From NCBI GenBank assembly GCA_000934665.2, contig JYFJ02001944.1:1-64000 (forward strand): 64,000 nucleotides of DNA, written 5' to 3'. Every line of letters begins with the position of its first letter. Positions within the stretch are counted from its first letter, which is position 1. The notes below the pieces were generated by a model that was not told the DNA's origin, did no database searches, and saw only the letters and a list, made by a program, of their open reading frames with translations. This DNA is from Catajapyx aquilonaris (Eukaryota). This document shows positions 3,374 through 61,268 of the stretch, piece by piece. A program made the position numbers and the translations under genes.

Positions 3374-6300
3374 TCAATCTTCATCATCCTGACCAGACGA
3401 CGAACCCGTCTGAAACCCGCTTCTGATTCCAAAGCTAGGGTTCGGGTACAGGCGATCATACACGTTACGAAACATGACTTCTGAGGTGCTTCCGTACATG
3501 GGCCGACCTGGAGGTGTCGCCTGTGTCGCAGCCGCCAGTGCAGACGGAATGGACGGCGTCGTGGCCATGACCGCCCCTTGTTTCCTCCACTTCCTTCGAC
3601 GACTCCGGTAGAACAGAAGAAACCCTGCGGCCACGCCTAAGTTGGCCATCATCACCATGGCGATGCAGGCGGCTAACGTAGACTTGGGTGTGCACACGTA
3701 GTCTGGTTCGACTGCATCGGGTATGTCCGGCATAGGCTGACCGTCCGGTGCAAGTCGGACAGTCGGACGGGACGGAAACTCGTTTGGTAGCATGTCTTCG
3801 CCGACCACTAGTTTGAGCTGGAGTGGTAAGGACTCCGGTACGTCGTTATCAGGTCGTTGCGTTGTGGTCGAAGGTACGGTGCTGCGTAGCTCGGTCGTGG
3901 TTTCCAGGTCGTTACGTGGTGGGTCGTACCTGACATCGTGTGGAAACCATGTGTCGTTGGGCTGCTGCCAATCAGGTCCGGAAGCTCCCAGTTCAACCAC
4001 ATCCGCTTGTACTTCCGGTTCGGATTCACCGCTACCTTCAATGTACGGCGGCACTGTCGTCGTGGTTGTCGTAGTCGTCGTTGACATTGTTGTGGTCGTC
4101 GAAGTGGTCGTTGATGTGGAAATGGTGGTGTCTTCCACCATATCTTCCTCAGTACCATTCACGGACCTTCGTCTTCGTCCGAATGAATCACGTCCACCAG
4201 CGCACCGTACCGGCTCGCATATGTCCTGACAGAACTGTACGGTCGCAACAAAGTGCACCACAGAAGTGGATGGGAAACGGAATGCCTTGAAGTACGTAAT
4301 CAGTGAGCGTGTACCCCTCTCCAGTTCCAACGCAGGGAATATTCCTGGATCTCTCGGACATCTGAAACACAACGCAATCAGTCAATTGCTCAGTACCGTA
4401 CTGACATGTATACATACCCGATATTGTCCAACAACGTTAGAAGCTCCCCGTTTTCAGTCCTGGCTTCCAGATTCCGGACAAAAATTCCAAAAGCTGAGAG
4501 AGGATCGATGTCTATTCGAAGTATGAGTTCTTCTCCTAGTCCAACGGTGACCGCGTCTTCACCTGACCTTAGAAGTATCCGCATCCGTACGTTCGGAGCA
4601 GGTGCAGTGTTGGTCACCAGGTTTGTGTCGGACGGACGGAACGGTACGCTGGAAATAGGTACATAAGTTAAGGTGTTCAACTTACGGTATGGGCGACCAT
4701 ACTTGACGCTGATTCCTCCACCGTCTTGATGCCTGGAACCTCCAGGGGAGTACGACACGGTTTGGTCCGCTGCATCGAATGAGCATTCGACTCTGACTGT
4801 CTTGTCCGTTTCCTGCATGATGACCGGATTCTGCTGGACCACAACGTGGTTAACATACTTGCCTCGTCCTTGCTGCACCGTGCCGCATCGTGTACCCAAC
4901 GGTACTCGCAGCACAACCTGGTTCTGTCCATCGCCCATTTCAAAACATGCCTGTGGGTTACCCGTTGCAAACACACGACCTTGGAATCCGGTACCGAAGA
5001 AGATGGTCACCAGCATCTCCGATTGGGTACACTCAACTCGTACTGAAAATGAGACATTGTCATCAATTTCGTCAGACAATACGCACATTGGTACTTACCA
5101 TTGTTGCAGCTTCCTCTTTCGCCATAGAAGAAATCGCGGTCTATGGGCAATGAGTTTCGGTCCTTTTCGGTACTGTAACTGTCGTCACCGGTCAACAGAC
5201 ATTCTCGTCTGTACTCGTTGAAGTTGAAGGCCCTGCACTTGAAGTCCCGTTCCTCCAGACATGCCCGTTTGCAATCGTCGGCGGAGAATACTCTGGATAC
5301 CATCTTGTCCGCATGGGGCAAGAACCGACCTGGAAGATCCATGAACTCACACTGCGGTGGGTCCTCAGCACAATCGTTCTCCATGTACTCCACATCCGGA
5401 CCTGAACGACGGTAGCTCTCGGGTCTGGTACGACGTGTGTCTGGACTCATCCTGCACAGTCTTTCTCTCGGGTAGTACGTAGCTGACCTGCATGGCATAC
5501 GTGCTTCTCGGATACATTCGGTCAGACACTGCAGACGGTGTAGGACGTTGGGTACTTCGAAGTCCGAGTTTCCGATGTTCTGCAGCTCGTACCCTGGTAC
5601 TCTCGTGCTGACCCAACCTTTTCCGCATCCACGTTCTGCAATACAATTTGATTAGGAAGGAGCCAAAGCGAAGATACCACCGGCATATCTCTTCGGGGTC
5701 ACGGGAGAAACACAGGAGGTCACACCAGTGAACGTACGTACCTCTAAGGCAGACCTTCTCGAAGTGCACTAGTTCGGCCGCCGGTTGCAGGTCAGACCGG
5801 TCCATCAACGACGTTCGGTCCACTCCGTAGCATCTCTGCCGGTACCCTCTGACCGTCTCGACGCTGACGCCCATGCATCGCTCACCGAGACGCTCGCACT
5901 CTCTGAGGCACTCCATGGTCAATCCGATGTCCGCCGATGTCCGTAACGCTTCACGTCGTCCACCGTTGTACGTGTATCCGACCACCTTTTCGTACACGAC
6001 CGTGTTGCGGCATCGGTCTGGCGAGTAGTCGCCTTCGAGATAACCAGGGAACTGGTCTGGGTATCTGTCAGGGAACCTGTCCGGATATCGATCTGGCTGC
6101 CGATCTGGGTAGCGATCCGGGTACCTCGGACGGTCATTTGGAGGGTACAGATGGTCTGGTCGTAGAGGTCGGGTCGGGTACTTGTCAGGTCGAGGATAAT
6201 CCTGATTCGGGTACTGGTCCGGGTACAAAGGACGTGGGTTCGGTGGGGGCCGGTACGGATCAGGACGAGGGTAGTCAGGACGAGGGTACTTTTCAGATGG

Positions 6301-9300
6301 ACGTGGGTACGGATCTGGTCGTGGGTATGGGTCGGGGCGTGGGTATGGGTCGGGGCGTGGGTACGGATCGCGGTCTGGAGGATACCCAGAATCGGGTGGC
6401 AACCCGGAGCAGTCTCGTTCGACAGACACAGCTCCGGTTAGAAACTGGTGCGAATTACCACCGCTGGAGAGGGTATCGCCGCTCAGTAGACACGGACGTC
6501 CTTCCAGTACATTCTGAAAAAATACGCCATAAGATCTGTGAGATACCAAGTGTACGGTACTACTTACCGTTCCCAGGAAAGAGTACGACCTGCATCGGAA
6601 CGTTCGTTCTTCGTCGCAGGCTCGCTGACAGTTGGTTTCACTGTATGCACCCACAGCTTTGGTGACGTACACCAAACGACGGTTTTGCTGCTGGTGACGG
6701 TACACGCATCGACGTGGTTCTGCAATTGTCGAAAATTACACGTGAAAAATTGTTCAAACTCCGTTAATACCGCAAGCAACTTACGAGGAGAACACTGGTT
6801 TTCAAGGTAGATCATGTCCGCTGTTGCAACGTACGCTTTTGGTAGAGTGTACTTATCCTCAGTGCACAGACGACATTCCCTCCGTACAATGTCGTAGTTA
6901 GCTGCCCTGCACATAAACCTCCTTTCCTGCAAACACCTGTCCGCACATTCGTCTTTGGTCACACCACGGTAAATTTCACGTTCTGAATCCTTCATCTGGA
7001 AGTTCGGTATGGCCTCGAACGACCACAGCAGTCCACATCCTCCTCCTGTCAATTACAATGTTAATAATAACACATCGTCATCATTGAGTCACACGTACCT
7101 TTAAGACAGACTCCTTCGTAGTACCCGACACCGGTGCTTGGTCTGAGCCCCGTTTCGTCCTCTCTCGCTGCCTGCTCCAGTGCGACACACTCGTTCCTGT
7201 TGTAATCCAAGTTGAATGCAGCGCACAGAGGCTCACTCTGGCATCGTCTTATGCACTGCTCCACAATACCGTTCTCAGTTCCTCGTCCGAACAGCGGAAA
7301 AGTACGTCCGGTATGAAACAGTTCGTATCCAGTCACCTTTATAAACTCCAGTCGACCCAGCTCGCATCGGCCGACTGAAATTTTTGGGCATTAAACCAAA
7401 TGTCTTAGTTGAAGAGTACAGTACGTTACCTTGAGGATCTGTCCCTCCGTTGAACGGCCTGTCTGGATAGTGCGGTCCTTTTCCGTTTCCGCTTCCGTGT
7501 CCGTTCCCGTTTCCGTTTCCGTTTCCGTTGAACGCCTGGCACACCTTCATGAAGAGGTCGGTGCCTGGACGGTTTTGCTGTGAACTTTCGCCGGCTGACA
7601 CTGCAATAAATGTAGGTTTTACAGCAAGATTTTTTTGGCATGTCGGGGATTTTTTACGTAAGTCGGGATCTACGTAAGTCGAGACTACGTAAAGCAGGAT
7701 CTATGTAAGTCGAGACTACGTAAGACAGGATCTACGTAAGTCAAGACAGGATCAACGTAAGTGGAGGCTACGTAAGTCACGATCTATGAGACTACGTAAG
7801 TCAGGACCTACATAAGTCGAGTGTACGTAAGTCCGAAGTTGACTGTTTTAGTGTTTTTTTTTTGCCGCTTCCTTGAAATCATGGTTGTTGTTGTTGCGCC
7901 CGATGTCTTTCATCCTGGAAGCTGATCGTCCCTGCGTACAAGTGTGTCTTACGGGTTGCTCTGAATAGTCAGGATAACAACTTGGTTGCAATTGCATTGA
8001 ATGAGAGTGCGTCCGAGTGGGTGCATGGGCAAAGCCACATTAACGTTCGTTAGCCTGGGGGGCCACAAAACGTAATACAATACTGAGCGGTTATATATCC
8101 TACAATAAGTGTACCCACCTATGTCGTCGCTTGACAAGAAGCATTGTCCTCCGGTACCGTGAAACGCAGCAGACCTGCAGTGAAACTCCCTGTAGTCGCT
8201 GCACCTCCTCTGACACATGACCTCGTCCGTGACCGGAGTGACCACTGCCTCCAGGTACCTCGGATACGCGTTCTTGACCGTCATGAACCTGCATCGTGGG
8301 TCAGCTTCGACACACTGATTCTCTAGGTACTCCGATGACATGGGTGCGTCGGTGTATGCATCTGGACGTGACCTCCGATCCTCCCGGTACAACCTGCACT
8401 CCGTGGTGTCAGTCTGGTAGTCAGCGGACCTGCACCATCGCTCTCTCAAACAGGACTCCATACAATCGCGTCTGCTGGACACCAACGGAAGGGTACGGTC
8501 AGCAGGCATCTGCATCCTTTTCCCAGGACGTCGCTCGAAGGCCCAACCGCGACCTCTGCACTGCGGGAAGTGACCTCTCAGACATATCTTCTCAAAGTAG
8601 CTTTGACCTTCTCGGGGCACCAGTTCTTCTCCACGACCCTGCGAGTTCCGGTCCAGTTTGAGGCACCGCATCTGTCCGTAGTCCATCATGAAGGCCGGAC
8701 AGTCTGCTCCACCGTCCAGGCACTTCTCGATGCATTGTCTTATTATGCCCAGAGTGGACGGACCTCCAGCAAGTGTACTCTGTCGTGCTGACCTAAGAAA
8801 GTGGCTGGACACCTTCTCGAAAGTGAAGGTCCCTCCGTCGCAATTCGCTGAAAAATCAAACACGGTATACGTAAGTCGAGTATACGTGACTCGGACATTG
8901 CCTGATTTTGAGTACATAAATGAAAGAAAAAAGTGTTTCAATAATTCATCAGCGTTGTCAACTTGTCACTGTGAAGCATCCTGCACTGTTCGTATGAGGT
9001 CAGTTGCTGACCTACTTGACCGTTGGGCCGTCACGTTTTTCATTCTGACTTACTGTTAGCGCACATGAGTTCGCCGATGACCGGGTCCTTCTTGTGGGGT
9101 ATCTGGTTCGCCAGGTACGGTCCAGGTCGGTTCAGCAACTTGTCTGAACTCAGGTAGCACCGGTTCTCTTCTTCGACATACTTGTACGCCAGACATGGGA
9201 AGGCCCTCGTCTGAAACAATGAGTTCAGTACCTGGCAAGTTTGTGAGATGTTGAAACACATACCTCTTTGCAGAGTGTCTCACAGTCCTTCATGGTAGCT

Positions 9301-28878: not shown

Positions 28879-29968
28879 ATGACAAGCAACTACCAGACAG
28901 TGGACGTCCACACCATCTCACCGGACAGGCCACTCTTTGGAGACGGAGAGAACAGGCCGAGGGTACATCGCACATGTCGAGATACTTAAAAACCCGGACG
29001 ACATGTCGCATCTGACCTTTACATTGTAACCTAAACTTACTCGCAACATTTGTACATAATTCAGATCCTAGTACCATATAAGTGTGCATAGTTAAAGTTG
29101 TGATATTGTTATAACAGATAACAGTCGCTGACCTCTTGTCACATGCTTCGTATTTTTGAGTAATTCTTATCGCGAAACAAGGCTTGATATGCAGGTGTCT
29201 TGAGATTTGTTTTATTGTAGTGCGACTTGAGGCCTGTTGGAGCTCCAGGTTGAGAGGGGATTTCCCTCGCGTCTCTTACTGTAATTCTGTGCTCTCTGCG
29301 CTATGCAGGTGAGGCTGAATGAATTCAGTATGTCAGACTGTTATAATAGTTGTTGAAAAATTAGATGCTAATAATAATAGGTCAAAATGAGCATAATTTA
29401 AAAAACATCTGCAGGGGGAAAAAAAGCAATCAAACATTGACCTTTGATGCCCGTCCTACTTGCAATGTTGTAATTGAAATTTAGATCCAAATGTTACTTC
29501 TCAGCCTGACATTGTAAGCTATTAACTGCCATTTGAGAAAAGGTCAGATGCAACAGTTGGAATCCTGCGAATTATTTGTCAGGTGGAATTCAGTGAATGC
29601 GAAGGTTTATTTTGTTAATCGTTTCAGGACCGGATTGTGAACCTGATTGTGGGATCAGTGACGGCGTTTGTTGTTTTAGCGACGTTCATTAGTGCCTTCA
29701 TCCAAGCTGGTGCGATCAGTGTGGGACTTAACATTTTCTTTGCCATCTGCATAGCATTCCTTTGTCTTTCACATTTACTAATGGTAAGGTGCTACTCGTT
29801 TATTAGTTTTGGTGCCATTTCTTAATTTGGCGAATTATGTCTTTTCAGATTTATTGGTATCGACAAGGTGACTTGGATCCAAAGTTCAAAAACCTCATCT
29901 ATTATAATGCGGGATGCTTAATTTTACTCTGCATTTGTGCCAATGTGTTTTTCCATAGTGGCAAATAA
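28879..29968 (+). CDS. TMEM243: Transmembrane protein 243
   Basis: Exons 28879-28962, 29628-29783 and 29849-29968 give DRPLFG...DRIVNLIVGSVT...LNIFFAICI...IYWYRQGDLDPKFKNLIYY...LCICANVFFH, the TMEM243 signature. Confidence 0.95.
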
Positions 29969-44768: not shown

Positions 44769-45812
44769 TCTGCTTCCTCCAGTAGACGTATCCTTTAATT
44801 ATTGTCATTATTTATTTATTATTTAATTATTATTATTCCAAAAAATCTTTCATACTCAGTTGATAATGCCACACTGGCACTTACTGTTAGTAGCAATAGC
44901 AACTATAATATGCAATGATTAGTATGCCAAGTGAAGCTTTTTAGATAATATATTGCTATAATTATGTAAATAAATGCCTCCTGCAGAATTGACAGACAGA
45001 ATCAACAGCAGTTAAAACCAAAATATTTTGCATAATAATTGTTAAGGGATACTTACTTGCGCGATATAATTATGTTGCCAGCAGCAATCACGATGAACGT
45101 CTGAGAACACGCGTACAGAACAACTACATGTAATTATGAATAGCCAGGTATAGCCTATATAGCCCCTATACGATTCAAAAGTTCTCGATGTCCGACAGCA
45201 TTAAGCAAGTACCAGGACCGTCAGACAAGCGTACTCAGAGTACGGAGGTACTGTACTGGGCACCCTGTACTGTGCAGAGACGTGACGCTAATGTCCTCAT
45301 TAAAATATGCAAAGGTCCACAGCAGCATGCAGCGGTCCACAGAGAAAATCATTCTCAGGCCGTGGGGATTCCCCTCGCCATTTCCTGATCCACGACTTTC
45401 GAAAAATGCCCGACGACATACCATTCAATCCGCCAGCAATAAGGCTCACAGCAGAAAATAAATTCAATCAACGTGTAAAACCGTGTGTAAAATTAATTAG
45501 GCCCCCTAAACACCTGAAAATGGCAACGAGATAAATATACGGTAGTTTATGGTAGCATACGGTAATATCTCCTCTGCCTGGTGCTGCCGACTGGCGATCC
45601 AAGATGGAACCTTCTAAATCCAACATGGCCGACTTTTCACCAAAGTTTTATTCAGTTCGGTGTGAACTCATTTTTCAGGAATTTTAGGCCCTTCTTCTTC
45701 CTGCTTCTGGCATGAACAGCACTGGCTGAACACAAAGACCGAGTTAGTACTGATCGGGTTTGTTTGGTTTTGGTTGCATTTCTGACATTTTGGTTTGCCT
45801 TGCACGCAGGTT

Positions 45813-46736
45813 ATGCCCCACGACGACAAGTCATCAGAAGTCACTGCGCAGCATCACGTTATAGAGAGCATGTTGGACACTGCCGAGGTACACACTGGGG
45901 AGGTGCATAATAGTTGCTGCACTTGGGAAGTTGTATATGAGGCGTAATTGTAGGGACTCGCACTTGAACCGTTGAACGGTAATGGAAAATGAAGAAAATC
46001 AGGTTGTTACTCAAGACTACTCTGGCACAAAGTTCAAAACTTAATAGTATAATTCAGCTGGGTTAGCCTGAAACAAAATGTGAGAAATGTCGAGACACCA
46101 TATCTGTATGATCGTAGCAATAAAATTCATTTTTGCTATTCGCAGAAACTTAATCTGGACCCAGGCAAGTTCCTGGAGCTGGAGCTGGAGGCTTGGCTTC
46201 TGCAACAGCTGCTCATCCTTGGTTCGAAGCGGGACCAGAAGGTGATTGCGACTCCGAAGCAAGGCTACCTGGTTGTCCCGAAGTCCCAGGCGGAGGTCGA
46301 CTCTGGCTCATTCCTTGTCGACCCGTCGCTCGTCCCGCTTGAGCAGGGATCAAAATTGGAGCCGGACCCACCTGACCTGGAGGAGAGTCAGCATGATTTG
46401 TCTGCACTCTTCCATGCGTGGCATCAGAGCCTGCAGGCTGAAGTGTCATCATTTGCGGCTGGAGAGACTCAAGTTAGAAATCTGTATCAGGAGATATCGA
46501 GGATGAGCCCGGAGGAGTGGGAGGCCAGCAGGGTCAGAGGTACAGAGGATGTGGCTTCGTCAATTCAGAAGGAGCTCTCGATGTTGAAATGCGAGGAAGA
46601 CGAGCAGGTGCCAAATCCGCCCCTGGTGGCCAAGCTGGAGGAAGAGGCGCAGGCGCTTGAAATGATGATCGTCGAGGATAACTGGACAGAAGATTCCATG
46701 CAGCATTTCTACCCATCTAATGAAGTGCAAGAATAG
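45813..46736 (+). CDS. Uncharacterised acidic protein (~221 aa)
   Basis: Exons 45813-45887 and 46146-46736 join in phase 0 with good splice sites; GC-rich codon usage; no family recognised. Confidence 0.7.
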
Positions 46737-48081
46737 ATCGATTGAGAATCGTGCATGGTTTCAGGTCATCTTTGTTGTTGTATGTGATATTATTATTCAC
46801 GAAGGACATTGAGAAAATTCCGCATTGTTAGCCTGCAATACAAAATTTTAACTAAGTCCTTAATTTTAATGAAGATATTTGCTGCTACAATCATTTGTAA
46901 ATTGGCAATTTTTATGCATGTGTTGTAATTTTTGTAATGATGTAAATGTATCAATGAGTCTACTCTTGCTACAATCGTACTCGAAGAAATATTGTGAACT
47001 GATGTCCAAGCTCTTACCGAGATCTCATTGTAACCTCTGAAAGTTTAATGAGGAATATTTTGTTAGATGTTGAGAGAGGTAATTTTAATCCATTCACATT
47101 TTAGAAAGAATGTTATAGCCTACCTGTGCTGCTTCTTATTCATTTTATAGAAAGCTATATTATTTATTACATATTTATTTGTACAGTTCACACAGGATGC
47201 CGTTGTTGACATTGTAGTGAAAGAAAATTTTTCCCTTATTTTGATATGCAGGGACATATTTGAAAATGTTTGTCCTTTGCCCTTCAAATCTGTATTACTA
47301 TTGTAAATAAATATTGTCCAACGCAGTGATCGGTGCAGTAATTTGTTTACTTCTGCAGCGACCCATCATGTGCCTTCGGTGAAAATCTTTTTAGCAATTC
47401 AGTTCGGATCACACTATACTTTAATAGCTAAAATTGGTGCGAAAGCCCTGAGGCACAATTATTATATTATTCCCCTCAGATACGCCCACAAATAAGACTA
47501 CCTGTACGTCAAAACAGTAAAAACATTTTGTAACCTTGCATGTGAATATGGTAGGCCCCTTATCTTGTTTGATTATGAGCACTTGAAGCGAGGATAAGAT
47601 GATCAGTCAGACTTTTTTGATGCCACAACTTCAGATTTATAGAGCATGATGAGGTAATTAATTTCAAATTGCGAATATGGAGCATGTGAGTTACGCTGCA
47701 GCAAAGTAGAGCAGACGTGGATTTTTATGCTCTAAATTAAGTAATTAATGACGTTGGTGTAATATTTTAGCATTTTTTTTTTGAAAAATCATTACAGGTT
47801 ACAGGGCTGTGGAAGTGAATCTTTGGTTGACTCGTCGTACTTGATGTAAGTAATATTTTTTTTTGGAACATTGTTGCTGTGTATCAGTATGCGTCACATA
47901 CTGTGAACGCTGGCTGATTCCCCCACACACTTCAAGTAAAAGTGACGCCTCTGGATTATTATCAGCATGTATGTGTCTTGCCAAATGCAACTCTTGATAA
48001 CAAGAGTACCTTGAACCATATTTGCTCATTGTAACAGCCTAGTTGCTGGTTGTCACTCACACCGTTAACATTCAACCAAAG

Positions 48082-49792
48082 ATGGGCAGCTGTTATCTTC
48101 TGGGCTTCGTGGCACTGGCCTTAATCGCCACAGGTAATTTCTAGGTTAATCCAGGATTTTACTAACACAAGGTGGTGCAAAACCACAAGTATAATGCGTA
48201 TTGTGCTGTAGGACAAGTTATAAAATAACAATTTAATTACTCCATACAATTCAATGGTGTATATTCGGATTGTTATCCACATAAATCATTCCTAAATATT
48301 TTCTTCACTATGTAAATCATTCACAACCAATCCTTGAACTATAATTATACAGTGAGCTCCCTTCCAACTGGTGGTGGTACCATCCTGGTGTACCAGTCCA
48401 AAAATGGCGAAGACGTGTTCATAAAGGCGTACCCGGCTGGGTACAGCAAGTGCATGAAGACGTGCGTTGACAATGGCCAAGATGTAAGTAATCACTAAGC
48501 AACAACCTCTGGACGTAATCTCGAGGTCATCATTGTCATCATCATCATCAACAGCCGTAATCACTTGTTTTGTTTGACGTCAATCAATTTGTATATCTGA
48601 AAGGCGTGCGACCACAGATGCAAGAATCCGCAGGAGGTGCTGAAGGGCATCTTGTCCAACTGCACTCAGGAGGAATACGATGCTTGTGTCGATTACTGCC
48701 ACTCCGTTGGTATCAACTCGACCACGTGTTTCGGCGATGGGAACTGCCTGTGCGTCGAGATGTACGGAAACGACCTGCTGAAGACGAAGATGGCCAAGCA
48801 GGAGACGGAGGAAGAGTGTGAAGACTGCGACGCATATTGCGACCAGCTTCCTTCGCAGGTATACACTATACACACCTGCGTAGTCTTAAAGGAAATTAAA
48901 TAAATTCAAGGGCATGACGCACACCCATCAGTGTGACCGCACATTTTAATAATTACAGGAAGTGACATGCAGCCCTCCCGTCGGATGCGAATGCGACTCG
49001 GACGAAGCCGGTACCATGTACCTGCTAGGTGACGACAAATGCACGCCAGAAGAAATACAAGAGTGTCACGACCGATGCGTCGACAACGGATTCAAGGTCC
49101 GAAACTAATTTACGTATATAATAACACATAATTATTATAGAAGCTCTATTATTTGTTCATTTCATACCCATCGAGAAGAAAATACTGACCTTATTCGATT
49201 ATTGTGGGTATGAAATGGACAAGCAAACAAACTGTGTCGAATTTTCGTCCCACTGCTATACGCGTAGTTAGCCTACTGGCTAACTTAGCAGTACCAGTGC
49301 CAACATTATTATTGACACTGCTAAGTTAATAGCAGTAACTATAGCAGTGCGACGAAAATTCCACCCATCGTCTTTTATAAAAGCTTTTTTTTTCTTTCCA
49401 TTTTACACCTTATTATTCATACCCATAATAATAGAATAGTGTTTTCTGGGTATGAAATAGTAATGAATGGTGGACAAACAAACAAACTTATATAAAAGAC
49501 AATGTTCGTTTGCTTGTCCATTTCACATCCATAAGTTATTATACCCATAATAACCGAATAAGTATATTATTTTCTTCCTGATGGACCGGACAAACAAACT
49601 TTTATCCTTTATAAAAGCTTGTTTGTTTGTTTGTTTGTTTGTTTGTTTGTGTGTTTGTTGTCCATTTCATACCCATTTCATGCCCATAATATAATTATGA
49701 ACCATTTTCTTCTTCATGAGAGTTGATACAACCAGTTTTTCTTGTTACAGGACGGCACGTGTCTGATCCCAGGCTTGTGCTCATGCGCTTAA
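48082..49792 (+). CDS. Secreted cysteine-rich acidic protein with three tandem CS-alpha-beta (defensin/toxin-like) motifs (~205 aa)
   Basis: Exons 48082-48133, 48353-48483, 48604-48858, 48959-49096 and 49751-49792 are all in phase. Signal peptide MGSCYLLGFVALALIATVSS; three C..CxxxC-x9-C-x5-CxC motifs; AATAAA at ~49838. Confidence 0.85.
49150..49690. mobile_element. Nested inverted-repeat (MITE-like) remnants in an intron
   Basis: CATTTCATACCCAT and its complement GGGTATGAAATG recur in both orientations with GACAAACAAAC tails; similar tails occur near 18130 and 62617. Confidence 0.5.
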
Positions 49793-50073
49793 ATCGACCT
49801 GATAACATCTGAAAGTTGAAGTGTTGAACCAATGGTTAATAAAAATCGGTGCATTACAATATTGTGTATGTTGCCTTTTTTAAAACAAAAAAAAATGTCC
49901 GTTAGTGGCCCCTCGTGTGCTGCCTACATTAAAATCAAGCCTCTCTTTCTGTGTGTGTGTTTCATTGGAGCGAGGAAAAGTGGAAGTGTGGCGCATGCGC
50001 TGTTTGAGGGAAGGTTTAGAGCGGGTGGTCGCAAACCATGGAAGGAAAACTAGGGTCGCCCTCAGATCTCTTT

Positions 50074-61174: not shown

Positions 61175-61268
61175 TGCCCCAGGTGAGGCTCGAACTCACA
61201 ACCCCGGCATAGCTCAGCAGCATACTGACTTATAAGTACCGTGCGCTAACCGATTGCGCCACTGGGGC
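61175..61268 (-). tRNA. tRNA-Ile(TAT) with a 20-nt intron (61230-61211)
   Basis: GCCCCAGTGGCGCAATCGGTTAGCGCACGGTACTTATA[intron]ATGCCGGGGTTGTGAGTTCGAGCCTCACCTGGGGCA; stems and A/B boxes are intact and a TTTT terminator lies just downstream. Confidence 0.96.

What the first reader, a model, noticed from the sequence alone, without database searches (positions are those of the whole stretch)
48082..49792. Secreted anionic multi-domain defensin/scorpion-toxin-like protein
Seen: a signal peptide, a 4-Cys segment (CMKTCVDNGQDACDHRC), then three motifs: CTQEEYDACVDYCHSVGINSTTCFGDGNCLC, CEDCDAYCDQLPSQEVTCSPPVGCEC and CTPEEIQECHDRCVDNGFKDGTCLIPGLCSC. All share CxxxC-x9-C-x5-CxC spacing and are rich in Asp/Glu. 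Phase-0 introns fall at the same point of domains 2 and 3 (six residues after CxxxC) and of the 4-Cys segment, which suggests exon-level duplication. Established: CxxxC/CxC is the CS-alpha-beta fold of arthropod defensins and scorpion toxins, usually single-domain and cationic. Inference: an unusual concatenated acidic member with an immune, venom/saliva or inhibitor role. No dibasic cleavage sites are evident between domains.
Basis: partly seen in the sequence, partly recalled or inferred. Interest (0 to 1): 0.75.

Follow-up and report, generated by a model that had tools for sequence, protein, structure and literature searches.

The report
Acidic three-module defensin-fold secreted protein
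A real, spliced animal gene encodes a secreted, strongly acidic protein made of three defensin-like, disulfide-stapled modules plus one decayed module; the layout is unusual but has precedents, and its function is still unknown.

Summary
A five-exon gene (48082-49792, + strand) encodes a 205-aa protein: a hydrophobic signal peptide, a 4-Cys segment, and three modules with identical C-x3-C-x9-C-x5-C-x-C spacing. It has pI 4.19 and no dibasic sites. None of 200,000 shuffles gave even two such motifs.

One contig of a public run joins exons 2-3-4 at the predicted GT..AG sites. Its length (546 = 22+131+255+138) also fits part of exon 1. Exon 5 is not covered, so it rests on sequence logic only.

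Module 1, folded alone, gives a helix plus two strands (pLDDT 86.7). Its nearest solved structures are almost all scorpion toxins and insect, mollusc or plant defensins, but the scores are weak (best E 0.55, best Z 4.1).

No sequence relative turned up in Pfam, PDB sequences, 1.84 billion protein representatives or the ESM Atlas. The classical arthropod defensin signature and gene structure are not met.

Multi-module and anionic defensin-like proteins are already described: nasonin-2/-6, Bizyarsin, MtDef5 and AfusinC. I rate this a new variant of a known kind, probably a non-lytic binding or inhibitory protein, with moderate interest.

The parts
48082..48133 (+). Exon 1: start codon and signal peptide (17 codons plus 1 base; phase-1 donor)
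   Evidence: ATG in a CCAAAGATGG context, with an in-frame stop upstream at 48040. Kyte-Doolittle 9-residue means are 2.2-2.9 for windows starting at residues 4-11. 18 letters of the 319.9-depth contig lie in the bin 48003-48169 (34.5 = 319.9 x 18/167).
48134..48352 (+). Intron 1 (phase 1, GT..AG), at the end of the signal peptide
   Evidence: The junction fits the contig length arithmetic 22+131+255+138 = 546.
48353..48483 (+). Exon 2: 32-residue Cys-free N-terminal stretch, then the first half of the 4-Cys segment (CxxxC plus 6 residues)
   Evidence: Covered by contig record 2 with 0 other letters.
48484..48603 (+). Intron 2 (phase 0), six residues after CxxxC
   Evidence: Joint 48483|48604, GT..AG, depth 319.9.
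48604..48858 (+). Exon 3: second half of the 4-Cys segment, a linker, the whole of module 1 (48661-48753), an acidic linker, and the first half of module 2 (from 48817)
   Evidence: a regex found the module at 48685-48753. Covered by contig record 2. Module 1 folded.
48859..48958 (+). Intron 3 (phase 0), six residues after the CxxxC of module 2
   Evidence: Joint 48855|48956, listed as GT..AG with the cut +3, which gives 48858|48959.
48959..49096 (+). Exon 4: second half of module 2 (to 48994), an acidic linker, and the first half of module 3 (from 49040)
   Evidence: Contig record 2 covers it to 49094; by length the contig ends at the end of exon 4.
49097..49750 (+). Intron 4 (phase 0), six residues after the CxxxC of module 3; it is filled with nested inverted repeats and a (TTTG)n run
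   Evidence: This junction is NOT confirmed by the run that was laid. Read-through would stop after 3 codons.
49751..49792 (+). Exon 5: second half of module 3 (x3-C-x5-C-x-C), one more residue, then TAA
   Evidence: The acceptor is tttttcttgttacag. The exon completes the third module at the same spacing and makes the mature Cys count even (22). No transcript cover.
49838..49843 (+). AATAAA polyadenylation signal, 45 nt after the stop codon

Best explanation
This is a genuine, transcribed, lineage-restricted animal gene. Its product is a secreted, probably N-glycosylated, strongly acidic ~187-residue mature protein that is not cut into peptides.

The protein carries three modules with the cysteine-stabilised alpha/beta (cis-defensin, scorpion-toxin-like) framework C1..C2xxxC3..C4..C5xC6. 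An N-terminal 4-Cys remnant (CxxxC-x7-CxxxC) looks like a decayed fourth module.

The array arose by old internal duplication of a unit that runs from mid-module to mid-module. This is why phase-0 introns sit six residues after the CxxxC in three places. Module 1 has either lost that intron or never had it.

Every module is anionic (net -4 to -6, and modules 1 and 2 have no Lys or Arg). I therefore infer that the protein does not act as a cationic membrane-disrupting defensin or as a K+-channel pore blocker. More likely it is a stable, multivalent extracellular binder or inhibitor, for example of a cationic protein, an enzyme, a metal-bridged microbial ligand or a matrix component.

Shown: the gene structure for exons 1-4, the cysteine architecture and the charge. 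Predicted: the fold of module 1. Inferred: the folds of modules 2 and 3, the duplication history and the function.
For: - Gene and splicing. A spliced contig joins exons 2-3-4 at GT..AG, and its length fits exon 1 (part)+2+3+4.
- Non-random architecture: three identical-spacing motifs against 0 of 200,000 shuffles with two or more.
- Internal similarity: exon 2 to exon 4 is 44% over 18 aa and exon 3 to exon 4 is 54% over 13 aa. The half-modules share 10-18 of 33-36 nt, so the duplication is old.
- Fold of module 1 (AF2, single sequence): pLDDT 86.7 with H5-17, E23-25, E31-33. C11 and C15 lie in the helix, C25 in strand 1, and C31 and C33 in strand 2.
- Foldseek: rows 1-11 are all scorpion toxins, drosomycin or insect defensins. 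Scyllatoxin has rmsd 1.2 over 29 columns.
- VIA search independent of Foldseek: the top rows are AtLURE1.2 (Z 4.1), mytilin (3.9), nasonin-1M (3.3) and drosomycin (3.2).
- VIA second look: 32 of 35 rows with Z>=2 are named toxins or defensins. Scyllatoxin gives Z 3.4, rmsd 1.8, 31 of 31 residues.
- Framework definition: the abstract of PMC5234102.
- Charge: pI 4.19; module net charges -5, -6 and -4; no dibasic sites.
- Precedents: unprocessed multi-repeat defensin-like proteins (PMC2853521, section 22) and anionic members thought to have lost antimicrobial action (PMC5234102, passages).
Against: - No sequence similarity to any defensin or toxin family. Pfam gives nothing at E<=10 except sub-threshold Tsg and WDR47_COR hits. 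PDB sequences give nothing. The only two hits among 1.84 billion representatives are repeat proteins that I judge spurious. The ESM Atlas gives nothing.
- The structural scores are weak. No Foldseek hit reaches E<=0.001, and unrelated chains score Z 3.0-3.2, just under the defensin-like rows.
- A single-sequence AF2 model of a Cys-rich mini-domain may simply echo the cysteine pattern.
- The model of the whole exon-3 peptide was poor (pLDDT 68.3). Its searches were uninformative.
- Modules 2 and 3 and the 4-Cys segment were not folded.
- Module 2 has only two residues between C1 and C2.
- Exon 5 has no transcript support.
- Run X1 is of unrecorded kind, so a processed DNA copy cannot be formally excluded.
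- Nothing here tests function.
Confidence: 0.6

Rival explanations
1. The modules are a convergent or unrelated disulfide-rich repeat that only shares the CxxxC/CxC spacing with defensins. They would fold differently, or pair their cysteines differently, so the protein belongs to an undescribed cysteine-repeat family.
For: - No sequence-level relative in any library.
- Introns split two of the three modules, unlike classical arthropod and mollusc defensin genes (PMC6435467, section 16 passage).
- The classical signature is absent.
- Fold-search scores are weak, with unrelated chains at similar Z.
- Only one module was modelled, and from a single sequence.
Against: - The predicted secondary structure puts every cysteine where the CS-alpha/beta framework needs it.
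- Defensins and toxins dominate the top of three structure searches.
- The C3-x9-C4-x5-C5-x-C6 spacing is repeated exactly three times.
Confidence: 0.17
2. The protein is a precursor (polyprotein) that is cut in the linkers to release three separate anionic defensin-like peptides.
For: The linkers of 13-21 residues between modules are Cys-free and charged. Multi-peptide precursors are common among arthropod immune and venom genes; this last point is from general knowledge and was not tested here.
Against: There is no dibasic or other recognisable convertase site anywhere in the protein. The published multi-repeat nasonins also lack processing signals (PMC2853521, section 22).
Confidence: 0.08
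3. It is a venom, saliva or other injected or secreted toxin in which tandem CS-alpha/beta modules act multivalently on an ion channel or receptor. This would be analogous to double-knot toxins.
For: The nearest structures include many scorpion K+-channel toxins. Tandem-domain toxins with a multivalent action are known for the ICK fold (PMC9950431, introduction passages).
Against: Modules 1 and 2 have no Lys or Arg and every module is net negative. That fits poorly with pore-blocking toxins, which are basic (general knowledge). The gene stands alone among ordinary genes, with no paralogue in the 64-kb window. No tissue information is available.
Confidence: 0.07
4. The locus is not a functional gene. 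It would be a decaying or mis-predicted model whose last exon is wrong, giving a truncated product with an odd number of cysteines.
For: Exon 5 has no cover in the only run found, and the contig stops at the end of exon 4. Read-through into intron 4 stops after 3 codons.
Against: Exons 1-4 are spliced precisely and are intact. Exon 5 has a strong acceptor, keeps the phase, completes the module at the exact spacing, ends in a stop and is followed by AATAAA. The tool itself warns that a part without cover proves nothing.
Confidence: 0.05

Closest known systems
Nasonin-2 and nasonin-6 of the wasp Nasonia vitripennis (Tian et al. 2010, PMC2853521; section 22 and passages read)
   Same: Secreted proteins built of several (4-5) tandem defensin-like CS-alpha/beta units with no protease processing signals. 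They are explained by exon or internal duplication, and a phase-1 intron follows the signal peptide. The solved single-unit relative nasonin-1M (2kp0) is among the best structural neighbours of module 1 (Z 3.3, rmsd 2.3, 32 residues, 25% identity).
   Different: In nasonin-6 each unit is one exon flanked by phase-1 introns. Here phase-0 introns cut through two of the three modules. That paper describes its peptides as net positive, whereas this protein has pI 4.19. No sequence similarity could be tested, because the nasonin sequences were not at hand, and none was found in the library searches.
Classical invertebrate (arthropod and mollusc) CS-alpha/beta defensins and short scorpion toxins (e.g. 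defensin A 1ica, lucifensin 2lld, scyllatoxin 1scy, Centruroides defensin 6bi5)
   Same: The six-cysteine framework C..CxxxC..C..CxC and the predicted helix plus two-strand fold of module 1. The C3-x9-C4-x5-C5-x-C6 spacing lies within the published range. There is a phase-1 intron at the signal peptide.
   Different: Those are single-domain, cationic peptides of about 30-45 residues. Their signature CX4-15CX2HCX6-9GX1CX4-9CX1C and unsplit mature exon (PMC6435467, section 16 passages) are not met here: CX2HC is present in 0 of 3 modules, GxC4 in 1 of 3, and 2 of 3 modules are split. No Pfam or PDB sequence match.
Anionic and two-domain fungal defensin-like peptides (Zymoseptoria fDLPs including 'Bizyarsin', PMC5234102, abstract and passages; AfusinC, PMC6181372, abstract only)
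   Same: CS-alpha/beta framework with net negative charge. Two-domain forms exist. 'Atypical' members with altered cysteine frameworks sit next to typical ones, which parallels the 4-Cys remnant here. The authors suggest these peptides have lost antimicrobial activity.
   Different: They are fungal and mostly single-domain, with a different gene structure. AfusinC is reported to be active against Gram-positive bacteria despite its charge, so an acidic charge alone does not exclude antimicrobial action.
MtDef5, the bi-domain plant defensin of Medicago truncatula (PMC5700942, abstract only)
   Same: Two defensin domains joined by a short linker in one unprocessed polypeptide, which acts as a multivalent lipid binder.
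   Different: It is a plant protein with eight-cysteine domains of 50 aa, and it is highly cationic. Its linker is 7 residues, against 13-21 here.

Membership tests
CS-alpha/beta (cis-defensin / scorpion-toxin-like) superfamily | Cystine framework C1...C2-X3-C3...C4...C5-X1-C6 (definition from the abstract of PMC5234102) | tested here: met
   Three modules with spacings 7,3,9,5,1 / 2,3,9,5,1 / 7,3,9,5,1. 0 of 200,000 shuffles gave two or more motifs. The N-terminal 4-Cys segment (3,7,3) does not meet it.
CS-alpha/beta (cis-defensin / scorpion-toxin-like) superfamily | Fold: a helix carrying C2xxxC3 packed on an antiparallel sheet carrying C4 and C5xC6 | tested here: inconclusive
   The module 1 model (pLDDT 86.7) has H5-17 with C11 and C15, E23-25 with C25, and E31-33 with C31 and C33. 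Its nearest solved structures are overwhelmingly defensins and scorpion toxins, but the best E is 0.55 and the best Z is 4.1, with unrelated rows at Z 3.0-3.2. This is a prediction only. Modules 2 and 3 were not folded because introns split them.
CS-alpha/beta (cis-defensin / scorpion-toxin-like) superfamily | Disulfide pairing C1-C4, C2-C5, C3-C6 | not testable with these tools
CS-alpha/beta (cis-defensin / scorpion-toxin-like) superfamily | Detectable sequence homology to a known member | tested here: not met
   No defensin or toxin family in Pfam at E<=10. No PDB sequence match. The 2 hits among 1.84 billion representatives are unrelated repeat proteins. The ESM Atlas gave no usable hit. 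Short Cys-rich domains often escape such searches, so this is weak evidence against.
Classical invertebrate defensins (arthropod/mollusc type) | Signature CX4-15-CX2HC-X6-9-GX1C-X4-9-CX1C (PMC6435467, section 16 passage) | tested here: not met
   The residue before C3 is Y, Y and R in the three modules, so H is present in 0 of 3. G two residues before C4 occurs in module 3 only, 1 of 3. Module 2 has C1-x2-C2, outside X4-15.
Classical invertebrate defensins (arthropod/mollusc type) | Mature domain encoded by one unsplit exon, flanked by a phase-1 intron (PMC6435467, section 16 passage) | tested here: not met
   Modules 2 and 3 are each split by a phase-0 intron six residues after CxxxC. Only the phase-1 intron at the signal peptide agrees.
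Classical invertebrate defensins (arthropod/mollusc type) | Small cationic mature peptide | tested here: not met
   The mature protein is 187 residues with pI 4.19. The modules have net charges -5, -6 and -4.
Short-chain scorpion K+-channel toxins | Basic surface with a pore-plugging lysine (recalled from general knowledge; not from a call) | tested here: not met
   Modules 1 and 2 contain no Lys or Arg. Module 3 has 2 K+R against 6 D+E.
Multi-repeat defensin-like proteins (nasonin-2/-6 type) | Several tandem CS-alpha/beta units in one secreted chain, without processing signals (PMC2853521, section 22) | tested here: met
   Three units plus a remnant, and no [KR][KR] anywhere. This is shared architecture only. 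Homology to the nasonins was not tested, and the exon layout differs.

The most novel reading that the evidence does not exclude
The protein is a natural snapshot of fold change inside one chain. Beside three intact CS-alpha/beta modules, a fourth copy has decayed to a CxxxC-x7-CxxxC helical-hairpin-type (CS-alpha/alpha-like) unit while keeping the ancestral intron position. The whole acidic array would then work as a stoichiometric partner that binds and neutralises, or chaperones, cationic defensin-type peptides or toxins. Alternatively it binds its target through bridging Ca2+ or Zn2+. Either role would be undescribed for animal cis-defensin domains.
Probability: 0.1. Interest if true: 0.65.

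Novelty: new variant of a known kind. Interest (0 to 1): 0.38.

Why it matters
Defensin-fold (CS-alpha/beta) domains are textbook small, cationic, single-domain effectors. A transcribed animal gene that strings three strongly anionic copies together, keeps them uncut and splits them with introns at a fixed internal point adds to the few known cases where this scaffold has been re-used for something other than membrane attack (nasonin-2/-6, anionic fungal peptides).

It also offers a tidy system for two questions. One is how mini-domains multiply by duplication of units that are offset from the domain borders. The other is what an acidic defensin fold binds.

If the function turned out to be neutralisation of cationic peptides, or metal-bridged target binding, it would widen the known repertoire of the fold. 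If it is just one more lineage-specific secreted orphan, it is of local interest for annotating this genome.

Tried and rejected
- Whole-genome search for paralogues: not possible, because no genome is held for this window.
- Paralogues within the window: none. tblastn with each exon peptide, and a six-frame regex, found only the gene itself and its internal repeats.
- The search for homologous proteins with the exon-3 peptide, 'longer' class: 7 candidates, none scored.
- The same tool on the neighbouring LDAH exon, meant to place the organism: none at my too-strict cut-off of 1e-10. It taught nothing, and the tool needs shared 5-mers.
- HMMER against 1.84 billion representatives: only P0005 and P0006. 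Both are long repeat proteins that score through many repeated stretches (11 and 5), so I rejected them as spurious.
- ESM Atlas, twice (whole exon-3 peptide, then module 1 against named clusters): no usable hit.
- Metagenome contig scan: one locus, L001. It is a 13-residue chance match at the C-terminus of a 642-aa bacterial ORF, so I rejected it.
- Fold searches with the 85-residue exon-3 model (pLDDT 68.3): only generic alpha+beta hits, which were uninformative.
- Sub-threshold Pfam hits to Tsg (E 0.03-0.08, 14-15.5 bits against a cut-off of 25) and WDR47_COR: treated as cysteine and composition noise.
- RNA runs: no RNA holder is listed. The single holder X1 is of unrecorded kind.
- Exon 5 and the 3' UTR have no cover in X1.
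- Immune-type promoter check: no GGGRNNYYCC or GGGGAWTYNY site lies between 47300 and 48081. GATA-like hexamers at 47959 and 47995 are too common to count.
- Centipede and remipede venom papers: they offered only analogies.
- Earlier notes of this scan: a sequence look-up and the first word look-up found nothing like this protein in other windows. A second word look-up gave 9 notes, all on prokaryotes.
Full report
WHAT IS THERE

The stretch 48082-49792 on the + strand reads as a compact five-exon eukaryotic gene. I translated every exon by reference and checked the junctions in a script.
- The exons are 48082-48133, 48353-48483, 48604-48858, 48959-49096 and 49751-49792.
- All introns are GT..AG. 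Their phases are 1, 0, 0, 0.
- The ATG lies in a CCAAAGATGG context. An in-frame stop sits upstream at 48040, with no in-frame ATG between them.
- AATAAA lies 45 nt after the TAA stop.

The product is 205 aa. It has a hydrophobic N-terminus (9-residue Kyte-Doolittle means of 2.2-2.9 for windows starting at residues 4-11). It has 22 cysteines after the signal peptide, 34 Asp+Glu against 13 Lys+Arg, pI 4.19, no dibasic pair and two N-glycosylation sequons.

The cysteine spacing is 3,7,3 | 13 | 7,3,9,5,1 | 21 | 2,3,9,5,1 | 15 | 7,3,9,5,1.

Introns 2, 3 and 4 each sit exactly six residues after a CxxxC: in the 4-Cys segment, in module 2 and in module 3. Module 1 is uninterrupted.

In 200,000 composition-preserving shuffles of the mature protein, 500 contained one such motif and none contained two. 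Three are observed.

IS IT A REAL GENE?

One public run holds 41% of the sampled words of the stretch. That is roughly the exonic share. When I laid the run on the window, it gave a 546-nt contig of depth 319.9.
- The contig matches exons 2, 3 and 4 with no differing letter.
- It skips 48484-48603 and 48859-48958 with GT..AG ends.
- Its length equals 22 + 131 + 255 + 138, which is the last 22 nt of exon 1 plus exons 2-4.
- The depth of 34.5 in the bin that holds exon 1 equals 319.9 x 18/167. This is what 18 letters of that contig laid there would give.

So introns 2 and 3 are confirmed, and intron 1 is consistent with the data.

The contig ends at the end of exon 4, and nothing in the run covers exon 5. 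The last junction therefore rests on sequence logic alone:
- a strong acceptor (tttttcttgttacag);
- the phase is kept;
- the third module is completed at the exact spacing;
- the cysteine count becomes even;
- a stop codon and AATAAA follow.

The run's kind is not on record, so a processed DNA copy is formally possible. A 32-Mb set of contigs that contains the spliced form looks like a transcriptome.

FOLD

Only module 1 lies within a single exon, so only that module could be submitted unaltered.

The 85-residue exon-3 peptide gave a mediocre model (pLDDT 68.3). Its searches were uninformative.

Module 1 alone (37 aa, window 48655-48765) gave pLDDT 86.7. It has a helix at 5-17 and strands at 23-25 and 31-33. 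The CxxxC cysteines (11, 15) lie in the helix, C4 (25) in the first strand and CxC (31, 33) in the second. This is the arrangement that defines the cysteine-stabilised alpha/beta fold (framework as stated in the abstract of PMC5234102).

Three structure searches with this model agree in direction:
- Foldseek against the PDB found nothing at E<=0.001, as expected for so short a query. Rows 1-11 are all scorpion toxins, drosomycin or insect defensins. Scyllatoxin has rmsd 1.2 over 29 columns and defensin A has rmsd 1.8 over 26 columns at 35% identity.
- VIA-align against 48,161 representative chains, independent of Foldseek, ranked AtLURE1.2 (Z 4.1), mytilin (3.9), nasonin-1M (3.3) and drosomycin (3.2) first. 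Unrelated chains follow at Z 3.0-3.2.
- In the second look at Foldseek's candidates, 35 rows had Z>=2. Of these, 32 are named toxins or defensins, two are 'cystine-dense peptide' entries and one is PrgK. The best is scyllatoxin (Z 3.4, rmsd 1.8, 31 of 31 residues).

I read this as good qualitative but weak statistical support for a CS-alpha/beta fold in module 1. By identical spacing, it is a reasonable inference for modules 2 and 3.

NO SEQUENCE RELATIVES

- Pfam reports no defensin or toxin family even at E<=10. The only hits are sub-threshold Tsg and WDR47_COR.
- PDB sequences give nothing meaningful.
- The word-indexed protein search gave nothing.
- HMMER over 1.84 billion representatives gave two repeat proteins that I reject.
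- The ESM Atlas gave nothing.
- A metagenome scan gave one chance match in a bacterial ORF.
- There is no paralogue in the 64-kb window, and no whole genome was available.

These libraries are weak for short cysteine-rich eukaryotic domains. 'Orphan' here means 'none found', not 'none exists'.

SURROUNDINGS

The neighbours are ordinary genes:
- a multi-PAN, cuticlin-like gene at 3.3-9 kb (- strand);
- a lipid-droplet hydrolase at 19.6-20.7 kb;
- a RhoGEF at 22-24 kb (- strand);
- tyrosine-kinase exons at 42.4-43.6 kb (- strand).

The window also holds a transcribed exon ending near 47311 and a tRNA at 61175-61268. This is not an immune or venom gene cluster. No kappaB-type site lies in the 780 bp upstream of the gene.

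Earlier notes of this scan describe the same genome as arthropod- or hexapod-like. I did not test that.

HOW IT PROBABLY AROSE AND WORKS

The three phase-0 introns at the same internal point imply that the duplicated unit ran from mid-module to mid-module. That unit is the back half of one module, a linker, and the front half of the next, as in exon 4 (46 codons). Exon 3 (85 codons) then looks like two such units (38 + 47 codons) fused by intron loss.

The copies are old. The half-modules share 2-6 of 11-12 residues and 10-18 of 33-36 nt.

The 4-Cys segment keeps the front half (CxxxC plus 6 residues, with 6 of 11 residues identical to module 3) and the intron. Its back half, however, is reduced to a second CxxxC. 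It looks like a decayed module.

Every module is net negative (-5, -6, -4), and modules 1 and 2 have no basic residue. That fits poorly with cationic membrane attack or K+-channel pore block. Those two requirements are general knowledge and were not tested here.

I therefore favour a stable, uncut, multivalent extracellular binder or inhibitor. This step is inference. One published anionic CS-alpha/beta peptide is nonetheless antibacterial (AfusinC, PMC6181372, abstract), so acidity alone does not exclude an immune role.

COMPARISON WITH WHAT IS KNOWN

- Classical arthropod and mollusc defensins have the signature CX4-15CX2HCX6-9GX1CX4-9CX1C. Their mature exon is not split and is flanked by a phase-1 intron (PMC6435467, section 16 passages). 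Here CX2HC is met in 0 of 3 modules, GxC4 in 1 of 3, and two modules are split. Only the phase-1 intron at the signal peptide agrees. The protein should therefore not be filed as a classical defensin. At most it belongs to the wider CS-alpha/beta superfamily.
- Nasonia nasonin-2 and nasonin-6 carry 4-5 defensin-like repeats without processing signals, with one exon per repeat (PMC2853521, section 22). So concatenation is not new.
- Zymoseptoria has two-domain 'Bizyarsin' forms, and over 70% of its peptides are anionic or neutral. It also has members with altered cysteine frameworks (PMC5234102, passages).
- Medicago MtDef5 is a bi-domain defensin (PMC5700942, abstract).

What appears new is the combination in an animal: three anionic modules plus a remnant, long acidic linkers, and intra-module phase-0 introns. 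My three literature searches found no description of this combination. They cover open-access text only, and I did not look at the supplements of the papers cited.

VERDICT

This is a new variant of a known kind with moderate interest (0.38). The decisive missing items are a cDNA read across the last junction, a full-length structure or disulfide map, homologues from other animal genomes, and any functional assay.

Noticed in passing
window 49097-49750 (intron 4): The intron is a nest of seven inverted-repeat pairs (arms 23-44 nt, 80-91% complementary) plus a (TTTG)n run near 49620-49660. It looks like one or more MITE-like insertions. Low-depth contigs of run X1 match pieces of it at 90-99%, with loose ends, so the element is repeated elsewhere.
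   Followed up: partly
window 45364-45374 and 29256-29266: GGGRNNYYCC (kappaB-like) sites occur 17 times in the window against 8.0 expected, and 0 of 100 shuffles reach 17. Palindromes count on both strands. A perfect palindromic GGGGATTCCCC lies 2.7 kb upstream of the gene, but another transcribed exon lies in between.
   Followed up: no
window 46053-47311 (+): A long open exon (227 aa, no Pfam match) is continuous with a 1360-nt contig of run X1 that ends at 47311. It is probably the 3' exon of an uncharacterised upstream gene.
   Followed up: no
window 3374-8965 (-): Exons of a gene with several PAN/Apple domains (E down to 7e-26), a weak Cuticlin N-terminal domain match and a Pro/Asp/Tyr-rich repeat stretch (PDPYPR...). 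It resembles a cuticlin- or ZP-type extracellular matrix protein.
   Followed up: partly
window 61175-61268 (-): A tRNA gene (Rfam RF00005, 53.5 bits). It was the only Rfam match in the window.
   Followed up: no
window 48655-48765 (module 1): A sub-threshold Pfam match to the Twisted gastrulation (Tsg) cysteine-rich region (E 0.03-0.08, 14-15.5 bits against a cut-off of 25). It is probably cysteine-driven noise.
   Followed up: no
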